DNA from: a virus
Virus record (IMG/VR): IMGVR_UViG_3300045988_107305
Location: 1-38,393 of that record
Direction: 5' to 3' (one strand)
Length of the DNA: 38,393 nucleotides
Position numbers and translations under genes: made by a program
In this document: positions 298-38,393 of the stretch, piece by piece
Layout of the letters: each line of letters starts with the position of its first letter
How positions within the stretch are numbered: position 1 is the stretch's first letter
The notes under the pieces: model-generated
Seen by the model: only the letters and a program-made list of their open reading frames with translations
What the model was told of the DNA's origin: nothing
Databases searched by the model: none

Positions 298-304
298 TTT
301 AACC

Positions 305-2006: not shown

Positions 2007-2288
2007 TTAATCCTTAATCTTTGCCTTAAAATTCGGCTCGTCTAAAAAACGCAAAGCAATTAAAAGCTCCGCAGGGGTTATTCTAGCTTGGTGGTATAAT
2101 ATTGTTGTGTGGTCTCTATTAACAACTCTAGCAATTCCAGCAAGTGGGTATTTCATTGCTCTAGCCGCTGCAATAAACATACGAATAAACGTGCTGCGAC
2201 TCGGTCTGTATCGGTCATCTTTGAAAATTTCAAACGCCTTGCAATACCTTTGCCAAAGGTCTTCTATTCCTTTATCGTCATATCTCAT
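2007..2288 (-). CDS. second DnaA domain IV-like HTH protein (93 aa)
   Basis: IRMFIAAARAMKYPLAGIARVVNRDHTTILYHQARI matches DnaA C-terminal DNA-binding signature. Confidence 0.55.
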   Translation of the reverse strand: MRYDDKGIEDLWQRYCKAFEIFKDDRYRPSRSTFIRMFIAAARAMKYPLAGIARVVNRDHTTILYHQARITPAELLIALRFLDEPNFKAKIKD

Positions 2289-5854: not shown

Positions 5855-6008
5855 TGATTATTCTCCCGTTTGTTTCCACTTGCATTTTTAGGGCTGTTTT
5901 TTCGCCTTGTAGGGCGATTATTTCATTTAAGGCATTATCTAACCTGTAATTTGAAATAATCACCCACAAAGTTAAAAAAGCAATACAAATAAACAGAGCT
6001 TTAGCCAA
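5685..6008 (-). CDS. candidate i-spanin (N-terminal TM, coiled-coil periplasmic domain)
   Basis: ALFICIAFLTLWVIISN TM then helical Q/E/K-rich region; downstream of lysis genes. Confidence 0.5.
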   Translation of the reverse strand: MAKALFICIAFLTLWVIISNYRLDNALNEIIALQGEKTALKMQVETNGRIINAYNQKILDASKQIAELKETALESGDVCYSQRISPALLNKLRKSRSNTDTAGKDNK

Positions 6009-8562
6009 GTGTTACATCTCCTCTCGGTTCTCTTTGATATTTATAATCATCGCCATAGGTACTAGTTGTAATTAACCCATCAGTATAACTTGTAATTTCA
6101 TCTGTCCAGAACTCATCTTGTTTTGTTACAAACATCGCAGTCTTATCTCCGACTTCTGGCGGAAATTTCTTTGTATAAGCCCTAGCGAATCGGACGTGGT
6201 TTATTTCTACGTCAGCCCCCATGTTGATAAGGGTTGATATTGTTTCGTAATCAATACATACTGGAGGTAGCACTGTTTTAGGGGTTCCTTTCCAGACAGT
6301 AAATGAAGAAATCTCATGGAAACCTTGGTCATCTAATTGTATTACTTTATATAATCCGTTTCTATATATCAATGCACTGTATAATTGAGGAATAGAAACA
6401 GCTTCATACCCCGAATAAGTTGTATTTTCAAAACTAATTTTTTGGAAGTTATAACCATCCCATAAATAACCGAAGGTAAATGTTGAGGCAGGGAAAAATA
6501 AGTATTCATTATATCCATCTTTAATGGTCATATTCCCTTGCCATTGATAATTGCTTGTGTATACTCCGAGCTTATTATCATATTCGACTTTTTGCCAAGT
6601 TTCGCCACAATCGGATGACTTATATATTTCTTCATAGTTAGCTCCGAATAAGACAAAGATTGTTCCTTTAGAAAATAGAACTTGGCTAATAAATTTCCCC
6701 ATACCTTGATTCCAAGAATCCCACTTATCACCGATCTTGCAGGATTTCCAATTCTCGCCGTCATCCGTAGAGATATAAAATCCAGCCATGGAAGAACTAC
6801 CACAAGCAACGATTGTAGGTGTTGTAACTCCATTTATATAAGTATATCCGGACTCGATATATTTCAGCTTATAATTTCCTGATATCTTAAATTTTTTAAC
6901 ATTATTGATATCTTTAATATCCTGCACAAGCACGCTCCAATCAGCATTAGCTTTATTAGTATTAACAGCGGCTATTTTCCCTCCATTATTACCATAATAA
7001 TATATTGATTTCGGCTGTGTGTTAGTACCCCAATTATATAGCTTTTGCCACGTGACAGTATTTGTGTTGTCTGATGCTCCATTATAAGAATAGACATAAC
7101 CATCTTCACTCCTGTAAAGCAGAGGATAATTTCCGACACTTACCGGAATTAGTCTATAATCTTCAGGGTAGTCAACGTCAGCATCAAATATTTCTGAGTG
7201 GGTCGAAAACAAATGATGACTTTCAACTGGCTTGTTCAATCTCCACAGTTGTAGCTCCATTGGTGTTGGGTCAACTGTATTTGTTTCAACCTTTGGAATA
7301 ACAACTGTACATTGAGCGCCGACTGTTGCAGGTACACTCTCCTTAACTTTACCCATCTTTGTAGTAGAATTTGTATAAGAATATGGAACAAGATAATTGC
7401 CATCAGATGCTGATGTTATAGAAAATTGTAAGTATGTGCTACCTGACTGCAGCAAAAATGCCCTACTAAAATCACTAGAGACCATAAATTGCGATGCTGT
7501 GTCTATGTATAAACCAGAAACATTTAAAATAGGACTTCTATCAATCCACATACCATTTATATATTGACAACAAACACATTTTCCAGTACTTGGAATATAT
7601 GCTGTAAATATGCCATATTGTTCATTCCAAAATGGATTGCAATTAGTATCAAAGCATTCTTGCATTGCACTTGGAAAATTTTCTTTACTATATGTTGTAA
7701 CGGTGCCATTTTCATATTTAAAAGCTAATAAAGCTGATGTTGGGGTATCTGCTGGTTTGCTTACTTGTCCAAAGATAATGCCATTGGACATTCCGCCAAA
7801 GATTGACTTGCAAGGCAATGAAGTTGAATTTTGAGATAATGAATTATCACCAAAATCTATTGTAACAATAGTTAAAATACTATTTTTAGCCACAACAAGT
7901 ATATTACTTGATATACTATACCCACCATATACGTCTTGCATTGCATAAGATATATTGTCGTCAAACACGGCTATATCATTTCCTGTTAATTTGTCAATTT
8001 TGTGTAGATATCCGTTGTCGAGATAATATTCTGAGTTAGCTGCATTATAGCCATTCCCCCAATACAATCCTTTTTCATAATTCAAAGAAGAAAATGCAGT
8101 ATTTGAATATAGATAGCCATCTTTATCTATGCCACAAAAGCGTCTTGGATAACCAGAAACACTACCAACTTGAGAAGCTATATAAGTATTATCTGATTCA
8201 TTCAATGTAGCTGTAAAGATTGTATTTGGATTATATGCACCAGAACTATACAATAAAATATCAGGTGCAACACAATAACAAGAAGCTAGATCATTGATGT
8301 TATATGTGGCAACTTGAGCCGTATTATCAACTCTTTCATTATAATGAACCCAATCTCCTTGAGTTAATGCTTTGGATGTATAATTATAGGCAGTAATTTC
8401 TTCACCACCGCCAGAACCCCCACCAGTTGTAATACTTGCGATTGTATTCGGCAAATTCTCACTATTTTCAGTGGTTGGAAGTGTTGCGCCCTTGGCACTA
8501 CATTCGGCATAACTCGCCGCGATGTTATTTTTTATTCTTGTTATTTGGTCTGCAATACTCAT
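6001..8562 (-). CDS. large tail fiber / receptor-binding protein with Gly linker and BNR (Asp-box) repeats
   Basis: 853 aa; GGGSGGGEE linker after about 45-aa N-terminus; S-x-D-x-G-x-T-W motifs (STDDGENW, SSDCGETW). Confidence 0.55.
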   Translation of the reverse strand: MSIADQITRIKNNIAASYAECSAKGATLPTTENSENLPNTIASITTGGGSGGGEEITAYNYTSKALTQGDWVHYNERVDNTAQVATYNINDLASCYCVAPDILLYSSGAYNPNTIFTATLNESDNTYIASQVGSVSGYPRRFCGIDKDGYLYSNTAFSSLNYEKGLYWGNGYNAANSEYYLDNGYLHKIDKLTGNDIAVFDDNISYAMQDVYGGYSISSNILVVAKNSILTIVTIDFGDNSLSQNSTSLPCKSIFGGMSNGIIFGQVSKPADTPTSALLAFKYENGTVTTYSKENFPSAMQECFDTNCNPFWNEQYGIFTAYIPSTGKCVCCQYINGMWIDRSPILNVSGLYIDTASQFMVSSDFSRAFLLQSGSTYLQFSITSASDGNYLVPYSYTNSTTKMGKVKESVPATVGAQCTVVIPKVETNTVDPTPMELQLWRLNKPVESHHLFSTHSEIFDADVDYPEDYRLIPVSVGNYPLLYRSEDGYVYSYNGASDNTNTVTWQKLYNWGTNTQPKSIYYYGNNGGKIAAVNTNKANADWSVLVQDIKDINNVKKFKISGNYKLKYIESGYTYINGVTTPTIVACGSSSMAGFYISTDDGENWKSCKIGDKWDSWNQGMGKFISQVLFSKGTIFVLFGANYEEIYKSSDCGETWQKVEYDNKLGVYTSNYQWQGNMTIKDGYNEYLFFPASTFTFGYLWDGYNFQKISFENTTYSGYEAVSIPQLYSALIYRNGLYKVIQLDDQGFHEISSFTVWKGTPKTVLPPVCIDYETISTLINMGADVEINHVRFARAYTKKFPPEVGDKTAMFVTKQDEFWTDEITSYTDGLITTSTYGDDYKYQREPRGDVTLG

Positions 8563-8574
8563 TCTTAAAACTCC

Positions 8575-9063
8575 TTAAATAAAACTTCCGGCAATTTTCT
8601 CTACACGGACAACTCTTGTAGTCCAACCTTTGCCAAATCTTTTAAATCCTTTTAACGTTTGTAGAAAATCTAAACGTGCTTGACTGTATTTTTGCACAAT
8701 TTCATCTTTTTTGCAACTGTTCGCCGCTCCAAGCGTTGCATTTCCTATTTTACCGTCAATCGTTACGCCTAAGCACTCTTGCAACACTTTAACAGCTCTT
8801 GAACAACCACTATTAACTGCAAAATCAAAAACCATAAAAGACAAACAATCAGGTAGTAAATCGCATTTACACCTCGTCCAGTAATCACGATAATAAATAT
8901 CGCGTGCTTGACACATTGTTAATGATGGAATGTCTAACTCTGGATATTGTTTTTTGCTAATACCGTACTTTGTTTCGCCGCCGGTATCTTTTTTATCATC
9001 AACATATCCGCCCTCATTAACCATCAGCATATCAAAGGCTTTATTCCACACTCTAAACGTCAT
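8575..9063 (-). CDS. endolysin, glycoside hydrolase family 108 N-terminal domain + peptidoglycan-binding C-terminal domain
   Basis: MLMVNEGGYVDDKKDTGGETKYGISKKQYPELDI matches GH108 signature EGGYVxDPxDxGGxTxxGIT. Confidence 0.85.
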   Translation of the reverse strand: MTFRVWNKAFDMLMVNEGGYVDDKKDTGGETKYGISKKQYPELDIPSLTMCQARDIYYRDYWTRCKCDLLPDCLSFMVFDFAVNSGCSRAVKVLQECLGVTIDGKIGNATLGAANSCKKDEIVQKYSQARLDFLQTLKGFKRFGKGWTTRVVRVEKIAGSFI

Positions 9064-9373
9064 CTTTTTTTATCCTATCAATAATTATTTCAGGGTGTTC
9101 CGTTGCCCTGTTAAATACTGCGCTTATAAGTAAATAAATCTTTACGGCGAAAAAGCCTAGTAGACCAGCTAAACCATATCTTGCAGGCTCGCTTATTGTT
9201 TCTTGCCATTCTTCTAAAATAAGTCCGCCGGCGGTTGAAAAGATGAACACAATTAAGCCTTCTCGGAACGTCTGCCAAATACTAACAAAAGGGCGTATAA
9301 AAGCCGTCAATATGGCAATAAATACGCCAACGATTGAATAACTTGTTACAATTTCCTTGAAGTCGTTAATCAT
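9053..9373 (-). CDS. holin (three predicted TM segments)
   Basis: 106 aa, three hydrophobic helices, charged C-terminus, directly upstream of and overlapping endolysin start. Confidence 0.6.
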   Translation of the reverse strand: MINDFKEIVTSYSIVGVFIAILTAFIRPFVSIWQTFREGLIVFIFSTAGGLILEEWQETISEPARYGLAGLLGFFAVKIYLLISAVFNRATEHPEIIIDRIKKDDV

Positions 9374-9377
9374 ATCT

Positions 9378-9812
9378 TTATACCCCTCTTAAAGACGTTT
9401 CCACATCGCCGATTTTATCGTTAATTGCTGAGACTTGCGTATTTAAGCCGGTTACTTGCGTACTTACCTCTGAAACAGCACTCAATACAGCGTTGTTATT
9501 ATCTCCAGCTTTATCTTCTTCTGTAACGGTGATTAAAGAACAAGTCATCTCGCCGGCACCGCGAACGTATAAATCCTCGCCAGTCGGAAGATAATTAAAA
9601 TATTCAAAAGGCATTACAACATTACCCTCGTTATATCTTTCTCCCAACTCTGATTCGGATTCAACCAGCATTATTTTTTGATTACTCAAATTCTGTAAAA
9701 CGTATCTTTTTTCTGGATTAAAAGTAAATGGAGCGCCTTTATATTCGCTAATTAAACTTGCGAAATTATGCCAAACATCACCATCTACCGGTAAAGTACA
9801 AATATGTGTCAT
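9378..9812 (-). CDS. tail fiber-associated protein (shares C-terminal IGDVETxL motif with adjacent fiber)
   Basis: C-terminus ...DKIGDVETSLRGV versus fiber ...[13 protein letters not shown]. Confidence 0.35.
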   Translation of the reverse strand: MTHICTLPVDGDVWHNFASLISEYKGAPFTFNPEKRYVLQNLSNQKIMLVESESELGERYNEGNVVMPFEYFNYLPTGEDLYVRGAGEMTCSLITVTEEDKAGDNNNAVLSAVSEVSTQVTGLNTQVSAINDKIGDVETSLRGV

Positions 9813-9834
9813 CTCTTAAACTCCTTTTTTTATA

Positions 9835-14898
<5,064 letters not shown>

Positions 14899-14902
<4 letters not shown>

Positions 14903-15435
14903 TGTTGCTCCTTTACTTGTACTTCACCTAGGCTTACTGTATCAGAATCACTATCAGACACTGGATTATAACTGCTTAAACTTTTAACTTGCACAAAACG
15001 CATTGTAACTTCAAATTGACTGTAATTGTCTATATTTTCGGGTATTTCGTAACTTGCAAGAGTGTAACCTTGTCTTAATGCCGCCTTTGTCTGGATATCC
15101 AGTTCATAAATACCGCTTTTATAATGCTCTAACTCTGTTCTTGTTTTTTCAACTGTTTCAGCCTTAGCTGATACATCTTGTCCGTATCTGTTACCAATAA
15201 AAGAAGCACGGCTAATTATGCCGATAACGTCTAAGGTATCAGGATTGTCATACTTATAATCAACAACGCTTATACCTTTTTCAGTTGGATAGCTTGTAAC
15301 ATTGCTTGAAGCTTTAAAGCTAACTTCATCAATGGAATCAAAGGTCATAACGATTTCGCCTGATTCGCTATCACTAATAACATATAACGAACTATATATA
15401 ACTTTTGACGGATTTCCTATACTACTTAAGCGCAT
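14899..15435 (-). CDS. tail protein (DNA-circulation-like position after tape measure)
   Basis: position only. Confidence 0.3.
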
Positions 15436-15436
15436 A

Positions 15437-16945
<1,509 letters not shown>

Positions 16946-17063
16946 TTATACGTTACAAATTCATTTTGGCGGCGGACAATTAAAACAACTTGCATTATAT
17001 AATAATCCGCCAAATCCATTGTTTTAAGGTCTTTTAGGCTTACTTTATCTTCTAAAATATTGC

Positions 17064-17453
17064 CTATGCCGTTGCTAACTCCGAAGTCTTTGTATTCCAA
17101 ATATTGCCGAGAGTTTTCATCAACGGCTGGAAGAGCGCAGAGTTTTGAATAAAAACCTGCTGAAACTTCAAAACCTCCGCGCCCAACTCAATTACAGCCA
17201 AAGGATTTTGAAAAATGGAATTACAGTCAGACACACTTAAACCCTCTTTTACGACTTTATCGCCTTTTGCGTCCAACATATCAACGAGTGGTAACAATTC
17301 GCCTAATAATTCGCGGATTTTAATGTTTTTAGCAATTAAATTGCCCGCTAATTTATCAGCTAAGTCCAAACCCCTCTCTACATCAAATAAATGTAGCTTA
17401 AAGTAAAGTTTGTTTCCCATATCGTTAATGCAGATTTTTTTAGTGTTTTCCAT
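17064..17453 (-). CDS. tail assembly chaperone
   Basis: 129 aa between tube and tape measure; -1 frame open through the 135-nt gap to TMP start. Confidence 0.5.
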
Positions 17454-17465
17454 TTTTTAGCCCCC

Positions 17466-21639
<4,174 letters not shown>

Positions 21640-21687
21640 TTAGTAAGTTTTTAAGTTAGGGCGGAGCGCAAACCCCGCCTGAGCCGA

Positions 21688-23234
<1,547 letters not shown>

Positions 23235-23244
23235 TTACTCCTTG

Positions 23245-24456
23245 TTAAATATTAAAATTCTTTTCTTCTTTAGTTTCAGAATAATCATAACTGAAACCAT
23301 TGTCAACTTTGCTACTGATTGAAGAACAAGCCTTTAGCATTGCGCTTAATTCAGCAGACGATTCTTTGCCGTTCAATTCAACGCCAAGATGATTTAACGC
23401 TTTAACGTACATATCTTTAGCGGTCATACCAAACGGATTAAAATCACCAATAACACCACAAGCGGCATTATATGCTTTAACTTTTTCTTTTTCAGTTTTA
23501 GCATTTTCAGCTTTAATAGCATTGGCAACTTTAACAGCCATAGCATTCATAGACTTAGCATCTGTTTTAACTTCTTCTTCGTCTTTCTTGTCTTCGCCGT
23601 CTTCATCTTTATCTTCATTCATACATTTATTGTCTGCGGAAGTTTCCGAATCATTGTAAGCCAATTTTCCAGCCTTCTCCATAACTGTACGAATAATCTC
23701 GTCATCAACTTTATCTTTTAGAATGCCGCCAATTTCATCAATCAAAGCTCTTTTGTCAACAGACTCATTTTCTGTAATTGATTCTTCGTGAACGTCAGCA
23801 CCTTCATCAGTTTCTTTTTCCTCTTCGGCAAAAAACTGGTCAAGGTTAATTCTCTTTCCGTCCAGTTCTAAAATGGCTTCATTGCAAATTTTACCCATTT
23901 TTGTCTCCTTTATTGAGTTTAAAACACGGACAGACGAGCCGCAACGCCCTCTATCCACCAAGGCAAGATGATTGCCTTTAATATCCCTAGCAACAAAATC
24001 ATAATCCGGATTGTTTGATTTTTCAAATCGGTTATAATAAGAACTAGAAAGCTCCTCTTTTTCGTGCGCCATAATTTTCTCAACAATGTCTTTGCCGGTA
24101 AATTCAAGCGGAACATATAACATTCCGTTTTCAACAAAAACATTTTCGCCGGTACTTCCTACCTGATAATCCTTAGCATCTTCGCCTTCATCGCCAAGCC
24201 AAGTATGGTCGTCAGTAATAGGCTTTAACTTAAATGTACTAGCGCACTTATTTAATTCTTCTTCTGGTATAAATACTTTATAAACTTTATCGGGGTCAAC
24301 TTTTACGCCGTCAACTTCACTTTCGCCATCGCTTAAAAGTTCACTACCATAATATTCTAAAATTCCGCTTTTAAGTATCGGCGACTTATCAACAAACAAA
24401 TAGCCGTTGTCATCTAAGTGTCTTTCACTCAAAGCGTTTTCGATTTTATAAAACAT
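23245..24456 (-). CDS. scaffold / prohead protease-like protein
   Basis: 403 aa with highly acidic K/E/D-rich C-terminal half, upstream of capsid. Confidence 0.4.
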   Translation of the reverse strand: MFYKIENALSERHLDDNGYLFVDKSPILKSGILEYYGSELLSDGESEVDGVKVDPDKVYKVFIPEEELNKCASTFKLKPITDDHTWLGDEGEDAKDYQVGSTGENVFVENGMLYVPLEFTGKDIVEKIMAHEKEELSSSYYNRFEKSNNPDYDFVARDIKGNHLALVDRGRCGSSVRVLNSIKETKMGKICNEAILELDGKRINLDQFFAEEEKETDEGADVHEESITENESVDKRALIDEIGGILKDKVDDEIIRTVMEKAGKLAYNDSETSADNKCMNEDKDEDGEDKKDEEEVKTDAKSMNAMAVKVANAIKAENAKTEKEKVKAYNAACGVIGDFNPFGMTAKDMYVKALNHLGVELNGKESSAELSAMLKACSSISSKVDNGFSYDYSETKEEKNFNI

Positions 24457-24509
24457 TATTAAACCTCTTTTTTTCTTTTATATTAAAACATTTTTTAACG
24501 TTTTGCAAA

Positions 24510-25427
24510 TTAACCCCTACTTTTTATAATTTCATAACTTCCATCAGGCAAGTGTATCGGCTCATAGCCTTGTAAAATCCATACTGGACGGGCATCACAA
24601 CGGCAGTTAGGGCGTTGGCTTGGAATTCCCCTATGCCCGTATGCGTCAATTATCGGATAGTATTGCGGCTCGTTCCAAGCATAAATTTTCCCGTCAAGCT
24701 GTTTATGCCCACCTTTACCTGTTGACACTCTTTCGTCCCCGGCGGTTTTCCACATAAAAAACTTAATACCGGCGGATTTTTGACTTAGCATATTCAAAGC
24801 CTGATTAGTCTTTGCCGTTTGGTCTCTTGCAATTAGTTTAATTCTTCTTGCACTGATTTCCGGTTGGTGTTCTAAGCCTTTTATAATTCCACGCCAACCC
24901 TCGCCGTTTGTCATACCATCATAAACAATATTCTCAATATTTGTTATTGTTTGGCTTGCCACATTTGTTATTAACTGAACATTTCGCTGTAAAATCAATT
25001 TCAAATCTTCATCATAGCCTTTGTCATACTCAATAGATATTTGTTTTCCGGCAAGTTCAAAAATGGAATCTCGAACCGATTTTTTCGCATTAGTCTTTGC
25101 CAAAGCAAGCCATTTTTCAATTATTCGATACATATTACGTTGGTATATTTGAAACTTCCGCTTTTTAGCTTTCATCAATATATCAATAATAGCCGATTTT
25201 GAACGTGTTTTTTTAGCCGTGGAGTTATCCGTTTTAATAATCGGGTAACTCTGTTTCAATTCATCAATAAGCGACTGTATAAACTTTCTAGCTTCTTTGT
25301 CGGCGGCGTTACGATAATAAATATCAGCCTTTGAGTTTTTAGTGATACCTTTACCAACTAAAATACCCATTAACGAATTGGCTCTTAAATTAGCCCACTT
25401 CTTTTTCTTCCGGCTTAATTCCATCAT
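24510..25427 (-). CDS. head morphogenesis protein, Mu F / SPP1 gp7 family
   Basis: C-terminal PSQRPNCRCDARP motif (HPxCRC signature of Mu F-like proteins); follows portal. Confidence 0.7.
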   Translation of the reverse strand: MMELSRKKKKWANLRANSLMGILVGKGITKNSKADIYYRNAADKEARKFIQSLIDELKQSYPIIKTDNSTAKKTRSKSAIIDILMKAKKRKFQIYQRNMYRIIEKWLALAKTNAKKSVRDSIFELAGKQISIEYDKGYDEDLKLILQRNVQLITNVASQTITNIENIVYDGMTNGEGWRGIIKGLEHQPEISARRIKLIARDQTAKTNQALNMLSQKSAGIKFFMWKTAGDERVSTGKGGHKQLDGKIYAWNEPQYYPIIDAYGHRGIPSQRPNCRCDARPVWILQGYEPIHLPDGSYEIIKSRG

Positions 25428-26889
25428 CTTTGCCTTGTTCTAATTGTTCATAATCTTCTAAAGATTCCGTTTCTACGTCAAAATCCATATTATCCAAGTG
25501 GAAGTCTTTATATTGCTTTAACCAACTCAAAACATCTTCCGGTTTAACTCCCATTTCAATGAATGAACGGGCAACTTCAACATAACTTCTTAGCTGTTCA
25601 GCTTTTTCTTTTTCGTCCGCAACTTCTAAAGGATTGAAAATATAATCATTAAACAATCTAAATTTACCATCAGTCATAGCACCATAAACAATGCCATACA
25701 TTTTAATAATGTTCTGTTTAATTTCTGATTGTATCGTCCTTATTCTATCGTAAAAATTCTTGCGCTCACCCTCAAGGGTACCGGATAAACCTTGCGCCCC
25801 TTTACCCAATAAAATTGACAATGTAATATCTGTTTTACTTGCAATAATTTGATAAAAGAACTCGCAAACTTCATCCATGCCCGCTAAAGAAGTTGTGAAC
25901 TGTTGAATTGTTTCGGTATCTTTCAAAGGATAAATACTAAAATTATCTTGCACTAAAGACATTGCTTCCAATCTTTGTCTAAAATTCAACGCACCCGCAC
26001 CGGTAAAATTCTCGCTCCCAGTCTGTAAATAAAGATTTCTAAAACGATTCACTAAGTTTGCCAAACCTTGACTTACTAAGTTGGAGTTAGCAATATCCTG
26101 TTTAATTAAGGTCGTTAATGGCATACCCAAATACATACACATAGGACGCATAACAAGTTCAGGTATATTTTCCTCAAAAATTAAGAAATGGCTAGCGTGA
26201 ACATTGCCCAAACCGATAACATACCACATACTAGGCTTCATATAATCAGGTTTAGCCGGCTCTGTTGTATTAACATTTACAGCAGTAATATTAAGTGGGT
26301 CTATTTGTCTGAATCCTTTAAAGTTTTTCATATTGATTTTTGCAAGGTCTAACGGGTCTTCAAGGTTTACCGAATCACCAAAATCCATATATACCAAGCA
26401 ACCACCAGATACAAAACTACTTCTTACGGCTTTACGCAAAGTATTTGTAACGTTATATCTTGTATCAGCCGTCTGTAATAAGTCAATTTCATTATCTGTT
26501 AAATCACCAGCCACTTGTCCACCATTAGCAAAAGGCGTATTGGATAAAATATTAAAAATCTTATTAAACAATGGGTCTTGAGCTAGCGCATAGCACTCAT
26601 AATAATTAACCGGCTGATAATTATACACACTTAATTGTGCGTTACCATATCCGCTATTTACCGATTGTAGTGGGTTTATCCATTGGTTTTTAATTTTAAC
26701 GCGGTGTTCGTTGTAAATCTTGAGCCCTTTTTCCGCGCCAAAATCTTTCGCTTTTCCCTCTAATCGCACTCGCGCCAACGTCATCGGCTCATCAATCTTA
26801 AACTCTTTCTTTTGTTTCAAATCCTCAAAAGCAGAAACATTAAAAACTTCTGCTACTTGTTTTGTTTTTCTTTTAATCCAGTTAAACAT
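25390..26889 (-). CDS. portal protein (Mu gpH-like)
   Basis: 499 aa between TerL-proximal gene and Mu F-like gene. Confidence 0.6.
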   Translation of the reverse strand: MFNWIKRKTKQVAEVFNVSAFEDLKQKKEFKIDEPMTLARVRLEGKAKDFGAEKGLKIYNEHRVKIKNQWINPLQSVNSGYGNAQLSVYNYQPVNYYECYALAQDPLFNKIFNILSNTPFANGGQVAGDLTDNEIDLLQTADTRYNVTNTLRKAVRSSFVSGGCLVYMDFGDSVNLEDPLDLAKINMKNFKGFRQIDPLNITAVNVNTTEPAKPDYMKPSMWYVIGLGNVHASHFLIFEENIPELVMRPMCMYLGMPLTTLIKQDIANSNLVSQGLANLVNRFRNLYLQTGSENFTGAGALNFRQRLEAMSLVQDNFSIYPLKDTETIQQFTTSLAGMDEVCEFFYQIIASKTDITLSILLGKGAQGLSGTLEGERKNFYDRIRTIQSEIKQNIIKMYGIVYGAMTDGKFRLFNDYIFNPLEVADEKEKAEQLRSYVEVARSFIEMGVKPEDVLSWLKQYKDFHLDNMDFDVETESLEDYEQLEQGKDDGIKPEEKEVG

Positions 26890-26913
26890 TAAAGAGTCCT
26901 TTCTTGTTTTATT

Positions 26914-27771
26914 TTAATCTGTTAATAATTTTTTATAATATTCAGGCTTATAATAAAATGCTGTTTTTAACACTTCTTCTTCTTTATCTTCTCGGCTTTT
27001 CTTTGCAAAAAAATCTTTAATCCGTATTGAGGATAGTTCGAATAATTCATCGTCAGACATTTTATTTATTTTAGAAGCTGCGTTTTTCTTAAAATCATCA
27101 AAAAGAATTGACCTTTTAATCCATTCTTGTCTTTCTTTTTTCTTCAAAGTTTCAGGAATCCAATAATCACCAGTTGCTTCTTTATACCTTTCTAGCAAAT
27201 CTTTCTCTGACAAACTTTTATATTTAGCCCAAGCCTTATTTTTTAACTCATCAAAATTATGCTGTTTTTTATTATATTCAGATACTTCATTTAATGCATC
27301 TTCATCAATATCTTCTATATCGTAAAAATCTGTTTTAGTCATACTTTTGCCAACATGATGCCACTCTGACGGCTCTATAAAACCTTTTAAATTCGATTCT
27401 TCGACATCATAACCTTCCTTTTTAAGCTCTCGCACTATATCTTTTGCTGTTCCTAAACCTTGACTTCTTGCGATAGAGGCATTAACACTTTCGCCCCCGC
27501 TTTCAAGATAGCCACTGCCGATTTTTCCAGCCGAACTTAAACGCTTACTTAAAGCCTCAGAACTGAGTTCTTTTGTTAATCTTTTTTTAATTCCTGCTAT
27601 ATCTAATTTTGATTCATTAGATTTTTTATCACTAGAACCGCCTACACCATCGGTAAATTTTCCATCTTTATCTCTCGGGTGTTCACTTTCTTTAAATTCG
27701 GCATTTATAACAAATTTTCCGTGTTTTTTATCCACGGTTATAACTTTATTGAAAATCTTAATTTTAAGCAT
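26914..27771 (-). CDS. hypothetical K/E-rich protein with EHPRDKDGKF motif
   Basis: ORF between TerL and portal. Confidence 0.4.
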   Translation of the reverse strand: MLKIKIFNKVITVDKKHGKFVINAEFKESEHPRDKDGKFTDGVGGSSDKKSNESKLDIAGIKKRLTKELSSEALSKRLSSAGKIGSGYLESGGESVNASIARSQGLGTAKDIVRELKKEGYDVEESNLKGFIEPSEWHHVGKSMTKTDFYDIEDIDEDALNEVSEYNKKQHNFDELKNKAWAKYKSLSEKDLLERYKEATGDYWIPETLKKKERQEWIKRSILFDDFKKNAASKINKMSDDELFELSSIRIKDFFAKKSREDKEEEVLKTAFYYKPEYYKKLLTD

Positions 27772-27823
27772 TGAAAAAACTCCTTTTTTTTTAGACTACT
27801 CGAAACAAATAAAAAAGTCAATT

Positions 27824-29083
27824 TCACGAAAAAGCGCGAGCGAACGCTTCCCAATCTTCAGTTACATACTTCCGCGCAACTTTTAAACTATACAAAAGGC
27901 AGTCTACAATATCATCATGTTCATCTTGCTTTCCACCGGTAAAAGCCTCGCATTCTCTTTCAAATTCCGGCAACCACGCCGCCGAATCAGAAATAAAAAC
28001 ATTCCCCGAACATAAATCAGCCTCAATTTCTAAGAATCTTGTATACTTATCAGCAACAACATCTTTTTGAAGCTGGATATTATGAACCGTTGGATATAAT
28101 TCCATAATCGGCAGCCCTTCACTTCTCAATTGTTGCGTAAGACTTATTCCGCTTGCCTTATTCTCAATATAGACGGACGACAACACATTATTCTTGCCAT
28201 AGGTCGCTTGCGCTTTAAGATAAAAGCTTTTTAAATCTCGGCACAAGTCGACGAAGCCGACTTTTTTTGCATACACATCTAAGATATATTTATCTTTTCC
28301 TGATATGCCCACCAGCATAAAAGCGGAGTTGTCGGCAGATTTTTTTTCACTAAAAGCAGTGTCGCAAACAATATACAAACCGTTAAAAACTTGCGGCGGA
28401 ATTGTATATCGCTTAAAATAAGCCATCTTAATAAGATTGCCAGCTTCAGCGTTTGGAATCCCAAGCCATATATGCTCATATCGTGGAAAATTAAGCTTTT
28501 TACACGTCTCCATTTCATTGCGTAACACTTCAGGGAAGAAAGGATTGTCATAATAGTTCAATTGAACCGCTATACAATCTTTCGGCGGTGATATAACAAA
28601 CCGCTGATATGTTTCATCACTTTTCATATTCGGATTAAACGTAACCCATATTTCAGAACCTTCCTCCCGTATTGTAGGTATAAGAACGTCCCAGCTTTCA
28701 GCCGTTACAGATTCGGCTTCTTCAACCCAACAATAATCAAGTCCTTGCATTGATTTTATTTCAGCAACTGAACTTTTTAAACCTTTAAAAATAAATTCCG
28801 AACCATTTACCCCGCGAATGGTATCAAGTGTTATTTCAAAAAAACTATCAAACCCGTATTGACTGATTAAATCCTTTAATAATTTATAAACCGAGTCTTT
28901 AATACTACCCTGTATTTGTCGGGTGCAAAGTATGCGAACCTTTCTTTTTATTGCAATCAAAATAAGGCATAACGCAACGTTAACACTTTTTCCACTGCCC
29001 CGTCCGCCATATAACACCTTGTATCGGCTCTTATCTTGAAGCAAAAAAAATGTCTTTTCCGGTATGCTTATTTTTTTGTCCAT
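27824..29083 (-). CDS. terL: terminase large subunit
   Basis: Walker A YGGRGSGKS near N-terminus, 419 aa, acidic nuclease-like C-terminal half. Confidence 0.85.
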   Translation of the reverse strand: MDKKISIPEKTFFLLQDKSRYKVLYGGRGSGKSVNVALCLILIAIKRKVRILCTRQIQGSIKDSVYKLLKDLISQYGFDSFFEITLDTIRGVNGSEFIFKGLKSSVAEIKSMQGLDYCWVEEAESVTAESWDVLIPTIREEGSEIWVTFNPNMKSDETYQRFVISPPKDCIAVQLNYYDNPFFPEVLRNEMETCKKLNFPRYEHIWLGIPNAEAGNLIKMAYFKRYTIPPQVFNGLYIVCDTAFSEKKSADNSAFMLVGISGKDKYILDVYAKKVGFVDLCRDLKSFYLKAQATYGKNNVLSSVYIENKASGISLTQQLRSEGLPIMELYPTVHNIQLQKDVVADKYTRFLEIEADLCSGNVFISDSAAWLPEFERECEAFTGGKQDEHDDIVDCLLYSLKVARKYVTEDWEAFARAFS

Positions 29084-29136
29084 CTAATAATCCTGTAAAA
29101 AAGTATTTTCTCGGGATTTTTTGATACCCGTTTCTA

Positions 29137-34295: not shown

Positions 34296-35192
34296 TTAAA
34301 TCAAATCAAACAATGTCAATCTTTCTAGCTGATTGCAGTATAAATATTCAGTTATTTTATCGCTACACGCCCCACACATCAGCTTGCGCTTTTTTTCACT
34401 CCAAACTTTATAGAATCGTTTATCGCTGATTTCATAGCTTGAAAAGTAAACTTTATAAGGTCGGCTTGCTACCCAGTCATAGAATTCAGCGTGATTAAAG
34501 TCTTTTTTATCATAATTCTTCGTACCCTCATAAGGTGGGTCGCAATAAACAATATCACCGTCTTCATAAACATAGTCAAGATAAGAACCTTGTTTAACTT
34601 CCAGTCTTTCCAGTCTTTCCAGGCTTTGCAGTCTTTCCAGTCTTTCCAGGCTTTGCAGTCTTTCCAGTCTTTCCAGGCTTTGCAGTCTTTCCAGTCTTTC
34701 CAGGCTTTGCAGTCTTTCCAGGCACTTCCTTTTATATTCTTCTTTATTTTTTTGAATATCCCCCCGACTCCCGTCTGTTTTTATTCCAAATTCAGCAAAC
34801 AGGCTTGTATCACCCAAAACTCTTGCATAGTGCAACGCCTTTTTCCATGGCTCAATCTCTTTGGAGTATAAATAATTATTCCCAGCACAACTAAAGCTCC
34901 AGCAATACTTAATATAGCCGTCTTGTTCTTTGAGTTTGGAGAAATCTTCGCGGCTAATCCATCTTTTTTCATTCCGAAAATCGCCGTTTATCGCCTTTTT
35001 CATCAAATCAACTAACAAAGGATTGTATTCATTATAGAGAACCTTTTGCCACTTGCCCGATAATACCGCACAATGACTGATTGCACCACCTCCGCCAAAT
35101 AAGTCAACAAACCGCCGACCACTTGGTAAGACTTCAATAATCTTTTCAGAAATAGCATTCTTAGAGCCCTGATACGTTATCCCGTACTTCAT
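34296..35192 (-). CDS. DNA N6-adenine methyltransferase (Dam/D12 class) containing internal (LER-LER-LQS)n repeat insert
   Basis: N-terminal YQGSKNAISEKII, motif I DLFGGGGA, motif IV DPPY; 9/27-bp tandem repeat in frame. Confidence 0.85.
   Translation of the reverse strand: MKYGITYQGSKNAISEKIIEVLPSGRRFVDLFGGGGAISHCAVLSGKWQKVLYNEYNPLLVDLMKKAINGDFRNEKRWISREDFSKLKEQDGYIKYCWSFSCAGNNYLYSKEIEPWKKALHYARVLGDTSLFAEFGIKTDGSRGDIQKNKEEYKRKCLERLQSLERLERLQSLERLERLQSLERLERLQSLERLERLEVKQGSYLDYVYEDGDIVYCDPPYEGTKNYDKKDFNHAEFYDWVASRPYKVYFSSYEISDKRFYKVWSEKKRKLMCGACSDKITEYLYCNQLERLTLFDLI
34599..34724. repeat. in-frame tandem repeat inside Dam gene: 9-bp subunits tctttccag/gctttgcag arranged as 27-bp (AAB) units x4 plus extra copies
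   Basis: direct reading; encodes LERLQSLER repeated. Confidence 0.9.
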
Positions 35193-35834: not shown

Positions 35835-36008
35835 TATCTTTATTCCTTTAGTTTCAATCTACCGCTGATTTTCTACGATTATTACAATATCTTTATAAAC
35901 TTCGACACGAATTATGTCTTTTTCGTGGTCATAATCATCAAGAATTGTAACTTCAGCAGTTTGTTTAGCTTTATTCAGTCTTTTTATCAATTCTTGGACT
36001 GTCATTTC

Positions 36009-36341
36009 TCATTCCTCCTCTAAAAATCTTTTTAATTTTGCCGGACTTTTACGCAACTCTGACAAATAGAACTCTGCAACAACTTCCCAGCTGTCATCTT
36101 CTTCATCATATTCTTTTTTGGTTATTAAAATGTTGTTGAAGTGGCAAGATTCAGCAAACGCTCTTTTAGAACTGGTACTAAAACAACAGTTAAAGCCATT
36201 TGCGTGTGCTGCGTATTCAATAGTAGAACGACCAATATACCCATCATCGCTTGCCTCAATCATAATATCGTTCTTGCAAGTAACGCCTAAATCGATTGTT
36301 TCACCATTTACTGTTGCTTCAAATAAAATTTCTTTTGACAT
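36009..36341 (-). CDS. hypothetical protein
   Basis: ORF directly downstream of promoter copy 3. Confidence 0.45.
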   Translation of the reverse strand: MSKEILFEATVNGETIDLGVTCKNDIMIEASDDGYIGRSTIEYAAHANGFNCCFSTSSKRAFAESCHFNNILITKKEYDEEDDSWEVVAEFYLSELRKSPAKLKRFLEEE

Positions 36342-36376
36342 TGTTTTTTCCTTTCAATTTTTCGTTTTGTTAATTT

Positions 36377-36405
36377 TAATATAACATAAAAAAAATAAAT
36401 GTCAA
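36377..36405 (-). promoter_or_regulatory. sigma70-type promoter copy 3 (TTGACA 36405..36400, ATATTA 36382..36377)
   Basis: consensus hexamers; about 60-bp context identical to copy 2. Confidence 0.5.
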
Positions 36406-36426
36406 CAATTATTTTATATTTTTTGA

Positions 36427-37188
36427 TTATTTTTTTAATTTCCATTTCTGATACCTTATTTTACAGAAGTCAACCATACTAATATAGTTTGTTATCCAAG
36501 CCATAGCCTTTTCGAATTCTGCCTTGCCTGCCGTATGGTATCGGGTATGGCAACTGGCGCATAATGGAATAGTTAAGCCGTCAGGGGCTTTAAGCGCCTC
36601 GCTCGAATAGCCTAATTCTTTAAGGTGGTGTACTTGTATGTTATCACTTCTACCGCACCACAAGCACGGCTCTTTATGTTCAAAGGCTATATACTCTTTA
36701 TCTTTTGCCGGTAATTCCACAAAGCGGAGCTGTTGCAAATCCTCTGGCGTGATATGGCGCACCCACGTATATCTTAAGCTAGGGTGTAGATACAGCCCCT
36801 CAAAGCATTTCGCATTGTCAATCAGATAAAGTACACGGTCAATAAATAAGCTTGCCGTTTCTCTATCCATTTCGGATAATCTTTTCGGCACGGTGTATGA
36901 TTCGCCGTTAAAGCGTGTTATTGTCTTGCGTAACCTTTCATCAAGATAGCTTGCACCGCTATATAAATTCTCTTTTACGGCGTCCACTTCCCAAACTTCG
37001 CCACGCTGTTTATAAAATTCTATAATCGCTGATATAAGCCCCCCGAGCACATAACCAAGCTGGTTAAGGCTTTTATCTTTATAGGGCTTGCCATAGGTTA
37101 AGGCTAACTCGCCGTATTCATTAAAGGCGCGGCACATATCTTGCACCGCCACCTCTAACATCTTGTCATTATAAATTGTTATGTTCAT
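36427..37188 (-). CDS. HNH-motif nuclease domain protein (C-terminal CxxC...HH...CxxCH)
   Basis: CLWCGRSDNIQVHHLKELGY...IPLCASCHTRYH. Confidence 0.5.
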   Translation of the reverse strand: MNITIYNDKMLEVAVQDMCRAFNEYGELALTYGKPYKDKSLNQLGYVLGGLISAIIEFYKQRGEVWEVDAVKENLYSGASYLDERLRKTITRFNGESYTVPKRLSEMDRETASLFIDRVLYLIDNAKCFEGLYLHPSLRYTWVRHITPEDLQQLRFVELPAKDKEYIAFEHKEPCLWCGRSDNIQVHHLKELGYSSEALKAPDGLTIPLCASCHTRYHTAGKAEFEKAMAWITNYISMVDFCKIRYQKWKLKK

Positions 37189-37197
37189 TGCTATAAC

Positions 37198-37617
37198 TCA
37201 AAATGGAATCCCATCATCTAAATCATCGTTATAAACTTCTTGCGGTTGCTCTGTCTCTTCCGTTTTAGGGTTAGCCGACTTCAAAACTTCAAATTGACTA
37301 TTCAGCCCGCTTAAAACAACCTCGGTAACATATACTTTGCGTCCGTCTTTTTCATAATTCCTTGTCTGCATTTTACCGCAAACATACACAAGGTCGCCTT
37401 TATGGCAATACCGCTCTATGTATTCCGACTTTGTGAACACAACAACCGGCACCCATTCAGTGCGCTCTTGCTTTTGCCCTTGAGCATCTTTCCACGATTC
37501 CGACACGGCAACAGTTAGGTTGACAACCTTAATTGCTGTTTGAGTATGTCTTACTTCCGGCTCTTTGCCGACACGCCCGATAATTTCAACTTTATTTAAC
37601 ATTTTATTTTTCCTCAA
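37198..37617 (-). CDS. ssb: single-stranded DNA-binding protein
   Basis: OB-fold-like N-terminus, acidic C-terminal tail ending DDLDDGIPF. Confidence 0.85.
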   Translation of the reverse strand: MRKNKMLNKVEIIGRVGKEPEVRHTQTAIKVVNLTVAVSESWKDAQGQKQERTEWVPVVVFTKSEYIERYCHKGDLVYVCGKMQTRNYEKDGRKVYVTEVVLSGLNSQFEVLKSANPKTEETEQPQEVYNDDLDDGIPF

Positions 37618-38393
37618 AAAATTGTTTTAATTTCTCATTTCCGAATTGTCCGCTTGTTAAGTCTATAATTTCCTTAACAGAATACTCCTTTTTCGTTTTT
37701 TTCAAAGAACTAACAAACTGTTTAGTTCCAAACTCACAAGCCCCGGTAATAATTCTATACATTTTAATAGCATCTTCTTTCGGTAAAACACTATCTAAAG
37801 TCAAATTATTAAACTGTGATGTATCTCTGTTTGAAATCTTATAAATCAAATCAGCTTTTGCTTGTTTTATAGTTTTTCCATGCGAATAATTCTCGCCATC
37901 AGTAACAATAAAACTTTCTTTTTTCGTAAAGTAGTCATTGAACGTAATAACTTTATAAACATTTTTCTTTTTTGCCAAAACTATCGCATCTATTTCATCG
38001 AAACATACAACTTCTTGAAACTTATGATTATAAAGACAATATCTTACATCTCCTTTAATTTTATCGCCATCAACAAATTCAGTTTTAACATAGTCAACAA
38101 CAATCATGCCATCTTCTCTTTTAAATTCTGCTAAAGTTATCCAATTTCCAACTTTGGCGGATACAGTGGAATATAATCCTATAGCGGATATGATAGAATT
38201 ATTACCAGTACAGTTGATTCGGGCGGAATTGCCTGAGCTACCAATTTGGGCGGAATTGCCTGAGCTACCAATTTTGGCGTAATTGCCTGAGCTACCAATT
38301 TTGGCGGAATCGCCTGAGCTACCAATTTGGGCGGAATTGCCTGAGCTACCAATTTTGGCGTAATTGCCTGAGCTACCAATTTTGGCGGAATCG
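37604..38393 (-). CDS. C-terminal part of junction-spanning tandem-repeat protein (repeats 38226..38393, C-terminal 200-aa domain 37604..38220)
   Basis: frame giving GNSAQ IGSSGNSAK repeats is continuous with supplied ORF 37604..38107 (no stop between); the supplied ORF 38179..38379 is a different frame. Confidence 0.6.
   Translation of the reverse strand, partial: DSAKIGSSGNYAKIGSSGNSAQIGSSGDSAKIGSSGNYAKIGSSGNSAQIGSSGNSARINCTGNNSIISAIGLYSTVSAKVGNWITLAEFKREDGMIVVDYVKTEFVDGDKIKGDVRYCLYNHKFQEVVCFDEIDAIVLAKKKNVYKVITFNDYFTKKESFIVTDGENYSHGKTIKQAKADLIYKISNRDTSQFNNLTLDSVLPKEDAIKMYRIITGACEFGTKQFVSSLKKTKKEYSVKEIIDLTSGQFGNEKLKQFFEEK
38226..38393. repeat. 27-bp tandem repeat, about 6 copies, same family as 2..190; last 34 nt identical to first 34 nt of window
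   Basis: direct reading. Confidence 0.9.

What the first reader, a model, noticed from the sequence alone, without database searches (positions are those of the whole stretch)
37604..38393. A roughly 350-aa protein with about 12 copies of a 9-aa Gly/Ser repeat spans the contig junction
A minus-strand gene starts at ATG 297..295 (RBS GAGGT) and reads MFDEFNEVLSLANNAIEF..., then (IGSSGDSAQ/K)n through position 1. With the 34-nt end overlap it continues in the same frame through the repeats at 38226..38393 into a 200-aa C-terminal domain ending at 37604 (the supplied ORF 37604..38107 is its tail). The supplied ORFs 77..319(+) and 38179..38379(-) are wrong-frame readings of the same repeats. The repeat unit is exactly 27 bp, so copy-number change keeps the frame and the protein is length-variable. 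It sits between a Gp157-like gene, erf and ssb, an unexpected place for a collagen-like Gly-Ser linker protein. I cannot assign a function; the N-terminal 38 aa and the C-terminal domain look like two folded modules joined by a flexible spacer of variable length.
Basis: seen in the sequence. Interest (0 to 1): 0.7.

Follow-up and report, generated by a model that had tools for sequence, protein, structure and literature searches.

The report
Phage repeat protein split by contig ends
The two ends of this phage contig are halves of one real gene whose 12 or more near-identical 9-residue repeats most likely form a rigid beta-roll with three variable surface positions, not a floppy Gly/Ser linker; it belongs to a large, uncharacterised family of gut-phage repeat proteins.

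Summary
The window ends share one exact 34-nt overlap inside a 27-bp tandem array. Joining them gives a 350-aa minus-strand ORF (ATG 297..295, stop 37606..37604). Related phages carry the same gene uninterrupted, so the gene is real. Copy number (12 plus one degenerate unit) is only the value implied by that join.

The "collagen-like flexible spacer" reading is not supported. Gly is not at every third residue. A, I, G, S, S, G are about 98-100% conserved. E. coli YdhT has a degenerate version of the same array and cap. The AlphaFold model (low confidence in the array) puts one strand in each unit and matches RTX and antifreeze beta-rolls.

Within the array only three nucleotides vary, and all three changes alter the protein (D/N/Y, S/Y, K/Q). 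Other phages use different synonymous codons but vary at the same three sites.

The C-terminal ~135 aa form a confident fold with no solved relative. In other phages this domain follows LRR-like or 8-residue arrays.

Best reading: an early-region, probably cytoplasmic protein with a length- and surface-variable solenoid joined to a constant domain. It probably binds a host factor, but its function is untested.

It is a new member of a catalogued but uncharacterised family. Interest is moderate.

The parts
302..306 (-). Shine-Dalgarno GAGGT, 4 nt upstream of the start codon. It overlaps the TGA stop (305..307) of the upstream Gp157-like gene.
   Evidence: Read directly from the sequence. The Gp157-like ORF ends at 305.
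196..297 (-). Start codon (295..297) and residues 1-34: a predicted amphipathic helix (residues 2-27) followed by a Lys-rich connector.
   Evidence: Translation. AlphaFold helix H2-27 with pLDDT 50-61. L11 and A12 are nearly invariant among 53 relatives.
1..195 (-). N-terminal part of the 27-bp (9-residue) array. Bases 1..34 duplicate 38360..38393.
   Evidence: Tandem Repeats Finder 3..195, period 27. Unit list. Overlap.
38231..38393 (-). C-terminal part of the array. After the join the array covers residues 35-142 (12 units).
   Evidence: Tandem Repeats Finder 38222..38393. Unit cores. Units differ only at nt 1, 5 and 10 of 27.
38012..38230 (-). Degenerate 13th unit (NSARINCTG) and the conserved cap, about residues 143-215 (...SIISAIG...GNWITLAEF...VDYVKTEFVDGDKIK...YCLYNHKF). 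The cap is shared with DUF7666-type proteins and E. coli YdhT.
   Evidence: Alignments and sequences. phrog_27197 covers residues 124-216. The NCBIfam YdhT model aligns to residues 22-174. pLDDT is 70-93.
37607..38011 (-). C-terminal alpha/beta domain, about residues 216-350. Invariant residues are H259, G260, K273, Y300, I303, T304, G305, A306 and G310.
37604..37606 (-). TAA stop codon. The ATG of ssb (37600..37602) follows after 1 nt, and a GAGGAA RBS lies inside the end of the repeat gene.
   Evidence: Read from the sequence. SSB hits Pfam PF00436 at E=2.7e-27.
305..1392 (-). Upstream genes on the same strand: erf (787..1392) and a Gp157 / Mu Gam-like gene (305..787).
   Evidence: Pfam ERF E=7.6e-24 and Sipho_Gp157 E=1.4e-19. 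PHROG 2324 and 253.
36427..37602 (-). Downstream genes on the same strand: ssb (37198..37602) and a DUF968/HNH gene (36427..37188). The related phage L001 has the same downstream pair.

Best explanation
This is one real gene of a circular or circularly permuted tailed-phage genome. The contig was cut inside the gene's own 27-bp tandem array.

The gene sits in the early replication/recombination gene cluster (erf, Gp157-like, this gene, ssb, HNH). Its product has four parts:
1. An N-terminal helix.
2. At least about 12 near-identical nonapeptides, [D/N/Y][S/Y]A[K/Q]IGSSG. These most likely stack two per turn into a calcium-independent, RTX-like two-sided beta-roll. Ala and Ile would form the core. 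The three polymorphic residues would form ladders on the surface.
3. A conserved cap that closes the roll. E. coli YdhT and DUF7666 proteins share it.
4. A ~135-aa constant C-terminal domain with no solved relative.

Proposed mechanism (inferred): slippage or unequal recombination between the 27-bp units changes unit number and reshuffles unit types. This alters the length and side-chain pattern of a rigid binding surface, while the C-terminal domain supplies a constant effector or adaptor activity. The protein is probably cytoplasmic and probably binds a host factor early in infection, for takeover or counter-defence.

Shown here: gene continuity, family membership, the restricted variation pattern, copy-number polymorphism, and domain shuffling.
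Inferred here: the beta-roll fold (the model has low confidence in the array), surface exposure of the variable residues, a binding role, and the identity of the target.
For: Gene and junction. An intact orthologue lies inside another contig.

Structured array rather than a linker:
- Six of nine unit positions are 98-100% conserved, including an A-x-I hydrophobic pattern.
- NCBIfam YdhT matches at E=3e-26 over residues 22-174. YdhT carries about 14 degenerate 9-residue units plus a similar cap.
- AlphaFold places one strand in each unit.

Selection on the protein and on three positions:
- The 12 units differ only at nt 1, 5 and 10. All of these changes are non-synonymous and there are no synonymous differences.
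- L001, L002 and L003 use different synonymous codons for IGSSG but are polymorphic at the same three sites.

Length variation: alleles with identical flanks differ in unit number. The family ranges from 2 to 23 units.

Constant domain with interchangeable arrays: the C-domain is found alone or behind LRR-like 20-21-aa, 18-aa, 8-aa or 9-aa arrays. These arrays also vary mainly in D/Y/S/N/W/G.

Early-region context.
Against: - pLDDT is below 50 for units 1-11. The beta-roll therefore rests on strand periodicity, conservation and YdhT homology, not on a confident model.
- The units are 5/9 Gly/Ser, which would also suit disorder.
- No experiment or paper addresses this family.
- There are no PADLOC hits, no conserved partner gene and no fold match for the C-domain. 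The binding or counter-defence role is therefore conjecture.
- All copy numbers come from short-read assemblies, which can collapse arrays.
- Cytoplasmic location is inferred only from an acidic, non-hydrophobic N-terminus.
Confidence: 0.55

Rival explanations
1. One reading: the repeats are a flexible, collagen-like Gly/Ser spacer of variable length. It simply tethers an N-terminal module to a C-terminal module.
For: The units are rich in Gly and Ser. pLDDT is below 50 over most of the array. Pfam Collagen scores 28.6 bits against a cutoff of 27.2. Unit number varies freely.
Against: There is no Gly-X-Y periodicity. Ala and Ile are strictly conserved at i and i+2, and the GSSG turn is invariant. 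The array is homologous to the degenerate YdhT array, which is not low-complexity. AlphaFold draws regular strands, not coil, and the model matches beta-rolls. A spacer would not need three recurrent polymorphic positions.
Confidence: 0.15
2. The solenoid is a self-associating scaffold or filament, like bactofilin or curli, or a molecular ruler. It would organise a replication or recombination compartment and would not be a variable binder.
Against: The neighbourhood is not conserved: SSB is nearby in only 13 of 84 loci. A ruler would be expected to hold a fixed length, yet near-identical alleles differ by 1-5 units. The same C-domain follows unrelated LRR-like arrays, which are classic binders.
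Confidence: 0.12
3. It is a virion protein, a tail-fibre-like or collagen-like appendage.
For: PHROG hits to tail-fibre families (phrog_8745 E=1.5e-10, phrog_366, phrog_5073). In L002 the homologue lies after the portal and MuF genes.
Against: The PHROG hits cover only the repeats. In the window the gene is outside the structural block, which runs roughly 6000..29100, and sits inside the early gene cluster. There is no match to any structural fold outside the generic solenoid.
Confidence: 0.07
4. The 27-bp array works at the DNA level, as iterons or an origin, a packaging site or a recombination hotspot. On this view the reading frame is incidental.
For: It is a direct-repeat array inside the replication/recombination module, as lambda ori lies inside gene O (established knowledge).
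Against: Different phages keep the same peptide with different synonymous codons, so selection acts on the protein. Arrays of unrelated sequence and period sit before the same C-domain. The family also occurs outside replication modules. A separate 23-bp x 2.9 repeat at 2482..2547, beside DnaA_C-like genes, is a better iteron candidate.
Confidence: 0.04
5. Assembly artefact: the two ends belong to different molecules or different genes, and the joined ORF is a chimera.
For: The overlap is only 34 nt and lies within a repeat. 37 of 80 related IMG/VR ORFs are cut by a contig end, so assemblers handle these arrays badly.
Against: Homologues with the same N-terminal helix, array and C-terminal domain are single internal genes on other contigs. 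P0005 is 94% identical to the joined protein, measured over the columns it shares in alignment A1. Both halves lie on the same strand and in the same repeat register.
Confidence: 0.03

Closest known systems
E. coli YdhT (NCBIfam NF007410), last gene of the ydhYVWXUT operon, uncharacterised
   Same: It shares a homologous 9-residue array with the pattern A-x-I-x-S-x-G-x-x, and a similar C-terminal cap. The match is E=3e-26 over residues 22-174.
   Different: YdhT units are degenerate, whereas the phage units are nearly identical. YdhT has its own ~70-aa N-terminal domain and lacks the phage C-terminal domain. The score is 92.6 bits against a 300-bit cutoff, so this protein is not an equivalog.
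DUF7666 (PF24703) proteins of prophages and gut bacteria (Prevotella, Ruminococcus)
   Same: The IGSSG-type array and the cap are shared, at 51-73% identity over that half of the protein. One example examined (P0028, L003) lies in a phage early region.
   Different: They have an N-terminal DUF7666 domain instead of the helix, and they end right after the cap. The window protein has no DUF7666 hit.
RTX nonapeptide beta-roll (CyaA, AlgE R-modules) and the MpAFP calcium-bound beta-solenoid
   Different: The GGxGxD calcium-binding consensus is absent: Ala replaces the Asp. There is no type I secretion signal or context. Sequence similarity is insignificant (E=0.0016 and 0.15). The protein may work like a beta-roll, but it is not an RTX family member.
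Unnamed C-terminal domain family of phage LRR-like repeat proteins (weak Pfam DUF4261 link)
   Same: The ~135-aa C-terminal domain is the same, with the invariant residues H-G, K, Y, I-T-G-A and G.
   Different: Most members carry 20-21-aa LRR-like arrays or 8-aa arrays. The 9-aa array is a minority partner, 4 of 144 inspected.
Hypervariable prophage genes with intragenic tandem repeats (hyvI/hyvII of 'Ca. Liberibacter asiaticus'; PMC4249863)
   Same: These are also prophage genes whose in-frame tandem repeat number varies between strains.
   Different: Only the paper's title, abstract opening and search-term counts were seen. The paper was not read and no sequences were compared, so this is a conceptual analogue only.
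Collagen triple-helix repeat (PF01391)
   Same: Both are Gly-rich. The Pfam score is nominally above threshold (28.6 against 27.2 bits).
   Different: Gly is not at every third residue. The hit is compositional.

Membership tests
Collagen triple helix (PF01391) | Gly at every third residue (Gly-X-Y)n | tested here: not met
   The unit DSAKIGSSG has Gly at positions 6 and 9 only, so Gly spacing alternates 3 and 6.
Collagen triple helix (PF01391) | Pfam gathering score | tested here: inconclusive
   28.6 bits against a 27.2 cutoff, over repeat residues 40-96 only. This fits compositional bias.
RTX beta-roll | Tandem nonapeptides forming a two-sided beta-roll | tested here: inconclusive
RTX beta-roll | GGxGxDxUx consensus with a calcium-binding Asp | tested here: not met
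   Aligned on the hydrophobic position, the unit reads S-S-G-[DNY]-[SY]-A-[KQ]-I-G. Ala occupies the Asp position.
RTX beta-roll | C-terminal type I secretion signal and T1SS genes | not tested
   No such genes were seen among the annotated neighbours, but no dedicated search was made.
YdhT (NF007410) | Score at or above the curated equivalog cutoff (300 bits) | tested here: not met
   92.6 bits.
YdhT (NF007410) | 9-residue A-x-I-x-S-x-G array plus C-terminal cap | tested here: met
   Profile positions 71-221 align to residues 22-174. The YdhT sequence was read.
YdhT (NF007410) | YdhT N-terminal domain (profile positions 1-70) | tested here: not met
   The match starts at profile position 71.
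DUF7666 proteins (PF24703) | DUF7666 domain | tested here: not met
   No hit at E<=0.1 or E<=1. P0028 and P0018 hit at 6e-34 and 3e-30.
PHROG 27197 (unknown function) | Full-length profile match | tested here: met
   E=1.5e-8, profile positions 3-96 of 97, residues 124-216.
Phage C-terminal domain family (unnamed) | Domain at the C-terminus with invariant H-G, K, Y, I-T-G-A and G | tested here: met
   H259, G260, K273, Y300, I303-A306 and G310 are present. Relatives score E down to 1e-70.
Diversity-generating retroelement target | Template repeat elsewhere, plus a reverse transcriptase | tested here: not met
   No further copy of the unit exists in the window. The variable sites are not the adenine-pattern type. 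No reverse transcriptase appeared among the ORFs that were annotated, but not every ORF was scanned.

The most novel reading that the evidence does not exclude
These genes may be one face of a widespread phage system of evolvable binders. A constant C-terminal domain is coupled to interchangeable solenoid arrays: 9-aa beta-roll, 8-aa solenoid, or 20-21-aa LRR-like. The near-identical units are homogenised by recombination but keep a small alphabet (D/N/Y/S/K/Q/W) at two or three surface positions. Unit shuffling and copy-number change would then create new binding specificities quickly, somewhat like lamprey variable lymphocyte receptors but without a dedicated diversifying enzyme. Phages would use these binders to neutralise or hijack variable host proteins, such as defence systems.
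Probability: 0.22. Interest if true: 0.75.

Novelty: new member of a known kind. Interest (0 to 1): 0.45.

Why it matters
There are two practical points and one biological lead.

Practical:
- The 34-nt "terminal repeat" that makes this contig look circular lies inside a coding tandem array. The genome is probably complete, but the copy number of this gene cannot be read from the contig.
- The same array-induced break affects 37 of 80 related IMG/VR contigs. Gene callers then emit truncated or wrong-frame ORFs.

Biological:
- A large gut-phage family couples near-perfect solenoid arrays to a conserved domain of unknown fold.
- The arrays show concerted evolution with polymorphism held at three residues.
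- If the array is a fast-evolving binding surface, this would be a simple, enzyme-free way for phages to diversify a host-targeting protein. The family would also be a source of modular binder scaffolds. None of this has been tested.

Tried and rejected
- blastn of 36000..38393 against 50,697 phage records found only Edwardsiella phage GF-2, under two accessions. The match is a "collagen-like protein", 74.7% identical over the repeats only. There is no close cultured relative.
- PADLOC gave no hits.
- A PDB sequence-profile search found only weak collagen and hemolysin repeat matches.
- BFVD returned only uncharacterised phage proteins. Names such as "Lamprin" and "E3 ubiquitin ligase" come from repeat similarity.
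- The afdb50 library was unavailable.
- The P0120 context look-up found no record.
- Literature: "DUF7666" gave 0 papers. No YdhT paper among those listed or opened gives a function. "IGSSG" gave only irrelevant hits. The LRR/prophage/tandem-repeat search gave only the Liberibacter hyv analogy.
- The genome-contig scan found only two distant relatives, an Eubacteriales MAG and a Bacteroidaceae MAG, so the host is unresolved.
- Neighbour clustering over 84 loci found no conserved partner gene.
- A DNA-mimic reading was considered and dropped, because the units are roughly charge-neutral.

Full report
**1. The observation**

The first and last 34 nt of the window are identical. No other exact terminal overlap of 10-400 nt exists. 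Longer in-register overlaps carry 4-11 mismatches.

Both ends lie in a 27-bp tandem array. Tandem Repeats Finder places it at 3..195 (7.1 copies) and at 38222..38393 (6.3 copies), with an 81-bp super-period at the 3' end. The 17-nt unit core occurs 13 times with no mismatch, only at the ends, against 0.09 matches expected by chance.

Removing one copy of the overlap gives a 1053-nt minus-strand ORF of 350 aa:
- The ATG is at 295..297, preceded by GAGGT at 302..306. That RBS overlaps the stop of the Gp157-like gene.
- Twelve units of [D/N/Y][S/Y]A[K/Q]IGSSG follow, then a degenerate unit NSARINCTG.
- The TAA stop is at 37604..37606. The ATG of ssb follows after one base.

ORFs 77..319(+) and 38179..38379(-) are readings of the same repeats on the other strand or in another frame. 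ORF 37604..38107(-) is the tail of this gene.

**2. Is the junction real?**

Any in-register join preserves the frame, and the 34-nt overlap covers only about four polymorphic sites. The overlap alone is therefore weak evidence.

The decisive evidence comes from other contigs. They encode the same N-terminus, array and C-terminus as one internal gene. P0001 (451 aa) sits at L001:6001-7356 on a 36.7-kb contig, followed by ssb and a DUF968 gene as in this window. P0005 is 94% identical over the columns it shares with the joined protein in alignment A1.

So the gene is real, and the genome is circular or circularly permuted. The number of units cannot be known from this contig.

The problem is general. 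Of 80 IMG/VR loci that encode the C-terminal domain, 37 have the ORF cut by the contig end. In 29 of those the cut falls in a still-periodic stretch.

**3. Genomic context**

The window is a complete tailed-phage genome of about 36% GC, with nearly all genes on the minus strand. The structural genes identified are terminase, portal, protease, major head protein, tape measure, baseplate wedge and tail fibre.

The repeat gene lies in the early DNA-metabolism block. In transcription order this block contains:
- DnaA_C-like HTH genes
- erf
- a Gp157 / Mu Gam-like gene
- the repeat gene
- ssb
- a DUF968/HNH gene
- D12 and other methyltransferases

.

**4. Architecture and family**

Two architectures share the array and the ~70-aa segment that follows it (...SxISAIG...GSWITLAEY...VKTEYVDGxKIK...YxL.NxxF):
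- (A) N-terminal helix, array, cap and a ~135-aa C-terminal domain, as in this window.
- (B) N-terminal DUF7666 domain, array and cap, ending there. One member adds an A1S_2505 N-terminal domain.

NCBIfam's best hit is E. coli YdhT: E=3e-26, 92.6 bits against a 300-bit cutoff, residues 22-174. Reading YdhT shows about 14 degenerate 9-residue units (ARIATAGYA, AQIASMGYS, SHIGSSGER...) and a similar cap behind a different N-terminal domain.

The window protein has no DUF7666 hit. It matches PHROG 27197 (unknown function) over residues 124-216. It matches tail-fibre PHROGs only across the repeats.

**5. Rigid array or flexible linker?**

Across 121 proteins, six unit positions are 98-100% conserved: Ala3, Ile5, Gly6, Ser7, Ser8 and Gly9. 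Positions 1, 2 and 4 take D/Y/N, S/Y and Q/K. Gly is not at every third residue, so the marginal Pfam Collagen hit (28.6 against 27.2 bits) is compositional.

AlphaFold, run with 53 relatives, gives:
- a helix at residues 2-27
- one short strand in every unit
- pLDDT below 50 for units 1-11
- pLDDT 70-95 from the last units through the cap and the C-domain

.

The A-x-I pattern, the homology to a non-low-complexity array in YdhT, and the 9-residue period shared with RTX rolls all favour a two-units-per-turn beta-roll. The calcium-binding GGxGxD motif is absent. The low pLDDT keeps this an inference, and I put it at about 75%.

**6. DNA-level pattern**

The 12 units (324 nt) differ at only three nucleotides:
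- nt 1: G/A/T, giving D/N/Y
- nt 5: C/A, giving S/Y
- nt 10: A/C, giving K/Q

There is no synonymous difference among the units.

Arrays in L001, L002 and L003 encode IGSSG with other synonymous codons (ATA GGA AGC TCT GGC; ATA GGC TCA TCA GGG; ATA GGC TCT TCT GGT). They are polymorphic at the same nt 1, 5 and 10, though each also shows a few further variable nucleotides.

This indicates homogenisation within each array (concerted evolution), selection on the peptide rather than on the DNA, and retention of diversity at three residues. It argues against an iteron or origin role and against a diversity-generating retroelement. There is also no template copy of the unit elsewhere in the window.

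**7. Length variation**

Unit number ranges from 2 to 23 in architecture A and from 12 to 23 in architecture B.

Alleles with 100% identical flanks differ in unit number: P0003/P0008 have 5 and 2, and P0067/P0118 have 15 and 16. P0020/P0036, with a 100% identical N-flank and a 99.5% identical C-flank, have 14 and 11.

These counts come from short-read assemblies, so individual numbers are uncertain.

One outside lead: an evolved Serratia symbiotica clone carried a 54-bp (2 x 27) in-frame deletion in a gene annotated ydhT_1 (PMC12505973). I could not check whether that deletion lies in the repeats.

**8. The C-terminal domain**

Searched alone, the C-terminal domain appears in stand-alone proteins and behind LRR-like 21-aa arrays of the form (GGSLDLSGTQITSLPDNLTV)n.

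A profile search of 1.84 billion representative proteins finds 1725 clusters at E<=1e-3 and 505 at E<=1e-30. In the 150 best hits listed, the domain is always at the C-terminus.

Among the 144 new hits in the top 150:
- 72 have arrays of period 20-21
- others have arrays of period 18, 8/16/24 or 9 (4 cases)
- 40 have no detectable repeat
- 8 have almost no N-terminal part

.

IMG/VR loci show the same variety, including CTFKTGSD-type and SATIKAGY-type 8-residue arrays. Variation within those arrays is again mostly D/Y/S/N/W/G.

The invariant residues are H259-G260, K273, Y300, I303-T304-G305-A306 and G310. Cys307 is only nearly invariant, so a Cys-based catalytic reading was dropped.

**9. Neighbourhoods**

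ORFs from 84 loci were clustered. No neighbour is fixed. SSB is within reach in 13 loci, and a paralogue is the adjacent upstream ORF in 8. Other clusters recurring in these loci look, from their sequences alone, like a DNA cytosine methyltransferase, a metallo-beta-lactamase-fold protein, a NinG-like protein, a helicase and a ParB-like protein; they were not scanned against any profile library.

One DUF7666-type member lies among YqaJ, DUF3127 and a T7 Gp5.9-like gene. One architecture-A member lies after the portal and MuF genes.

The family therefore behaves as a mobile accessory gene, found mostly in early regions. Its position next to erf and ssb here is not unusual for the family.

**10. 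Interpretation**

Shown:
- It is a real, junction-spanning gene.
- It belongs to the YdhT/DUF7666-type array family and to the C-domain family.
- Variation is restricted to three codon sites on a background of concerted evolution.
- Unit number is polymorphic.
- The domains are shuffled among different arrays.

Inferred:
- The array is a rigid beta-roll.
- The three variable residues are surface ladders.
- Unit shuffling tunes a binding surface, while the C-domain provides a constant activity.
- The target is a host factor met early in infection.

No defence or anti-defence annotation supports that last step, and no paper addresses the family.

**11. Verdict**

The protein is a new member of a catalogued but functionally unknown family.

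The junction itself is an ordinary assembly consequence of a coding tandem array. The lasting interest is the family-wide pattern of near-perfect, three-site-variable solenoid arrays joined to a constant domain of unknown fold.

Noticed in passing
window 34296..35192 (-), repeat at 34599..34721: A D12-class N6-adenine DNA methyltransferase ORF (Pfam E=4.8e-15) contains its own perfect in-frame tandem array. The period is 9/27 bp, with 4.4 copies at 100% identity, encoding LERLQS/LERLER. This is a second length-variable coding repeat in the same phage.
   Followed up: partly
window 2482..2547: A 23-bp tandem repeat (2.9 copies, AT-rich unit TTAAAATATTTTTTAATCGTCGG) lies inside or next to ORF 2292..2801(-), beside two DnaA_C/HTH-like genes (1502..2002 and 2007..2288). 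It is a more plausible iteron or origin candidate than the 27-bp array.
   Followed up: no
L005-L084 (IMG/VR loci): In 37 of 80 loci the homologous ORF is cut by the contig end, and in 29 of these the cut lies inside the repeat array. These arrays systematically end short-read phage contigs and can create short repeat-derived terminal overlaps.
   Followed up: yes
P0018 (528 aa): A fusion of an A1S_2505-family N-terminal domain (phage non-structural protein, E=1e-38) with DUF7666, 23 IGSSG units and the cap. This is a further N-terminal module attached to the same array.
   Followed up: partly
L064/L073 and L039/L076 (each pair from one contig); 8 loci with adjacent paralogues: Some phage or large viral contigs (72-211 kb) carry two or more paralogues of the C-domain repeat protein, sometimes adjacent to each other.
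   Followed up: partly
PMC12505973, Table 2, clone LT-05: A 54-bp (2 x 27 bp) in-frame deletion arose in a 1413-nt gene annotated ydhT_1 during laboratory evolution of Serratia symbiotica. It may be a real-time unit loss in a YdhT-type array.
   Followed up: no
Edwardsiella phage GF-2, AP014629.1 30715..30900 (H1): A "putative collagen-like protein" matches the window's array at 74.7% DNA identity, at 18 places. It may carry a related 27-bp array in a cultured phage.
   Followed up: no
window 302..306 and 37608..37613: Strong Shine-Dalgarno motifs (GAGGT, GAGGAA) and 1-7 nt gene spacing occur through the erf, Gp157-like, repeat gene and ssb stretch, suggesting translational coupling. The host remains unidentified. 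The only relatives in representative genomes are an Eubacteriales MAG and a Bacteroidaceae MAG (L085, L086).
   Followed up: partly
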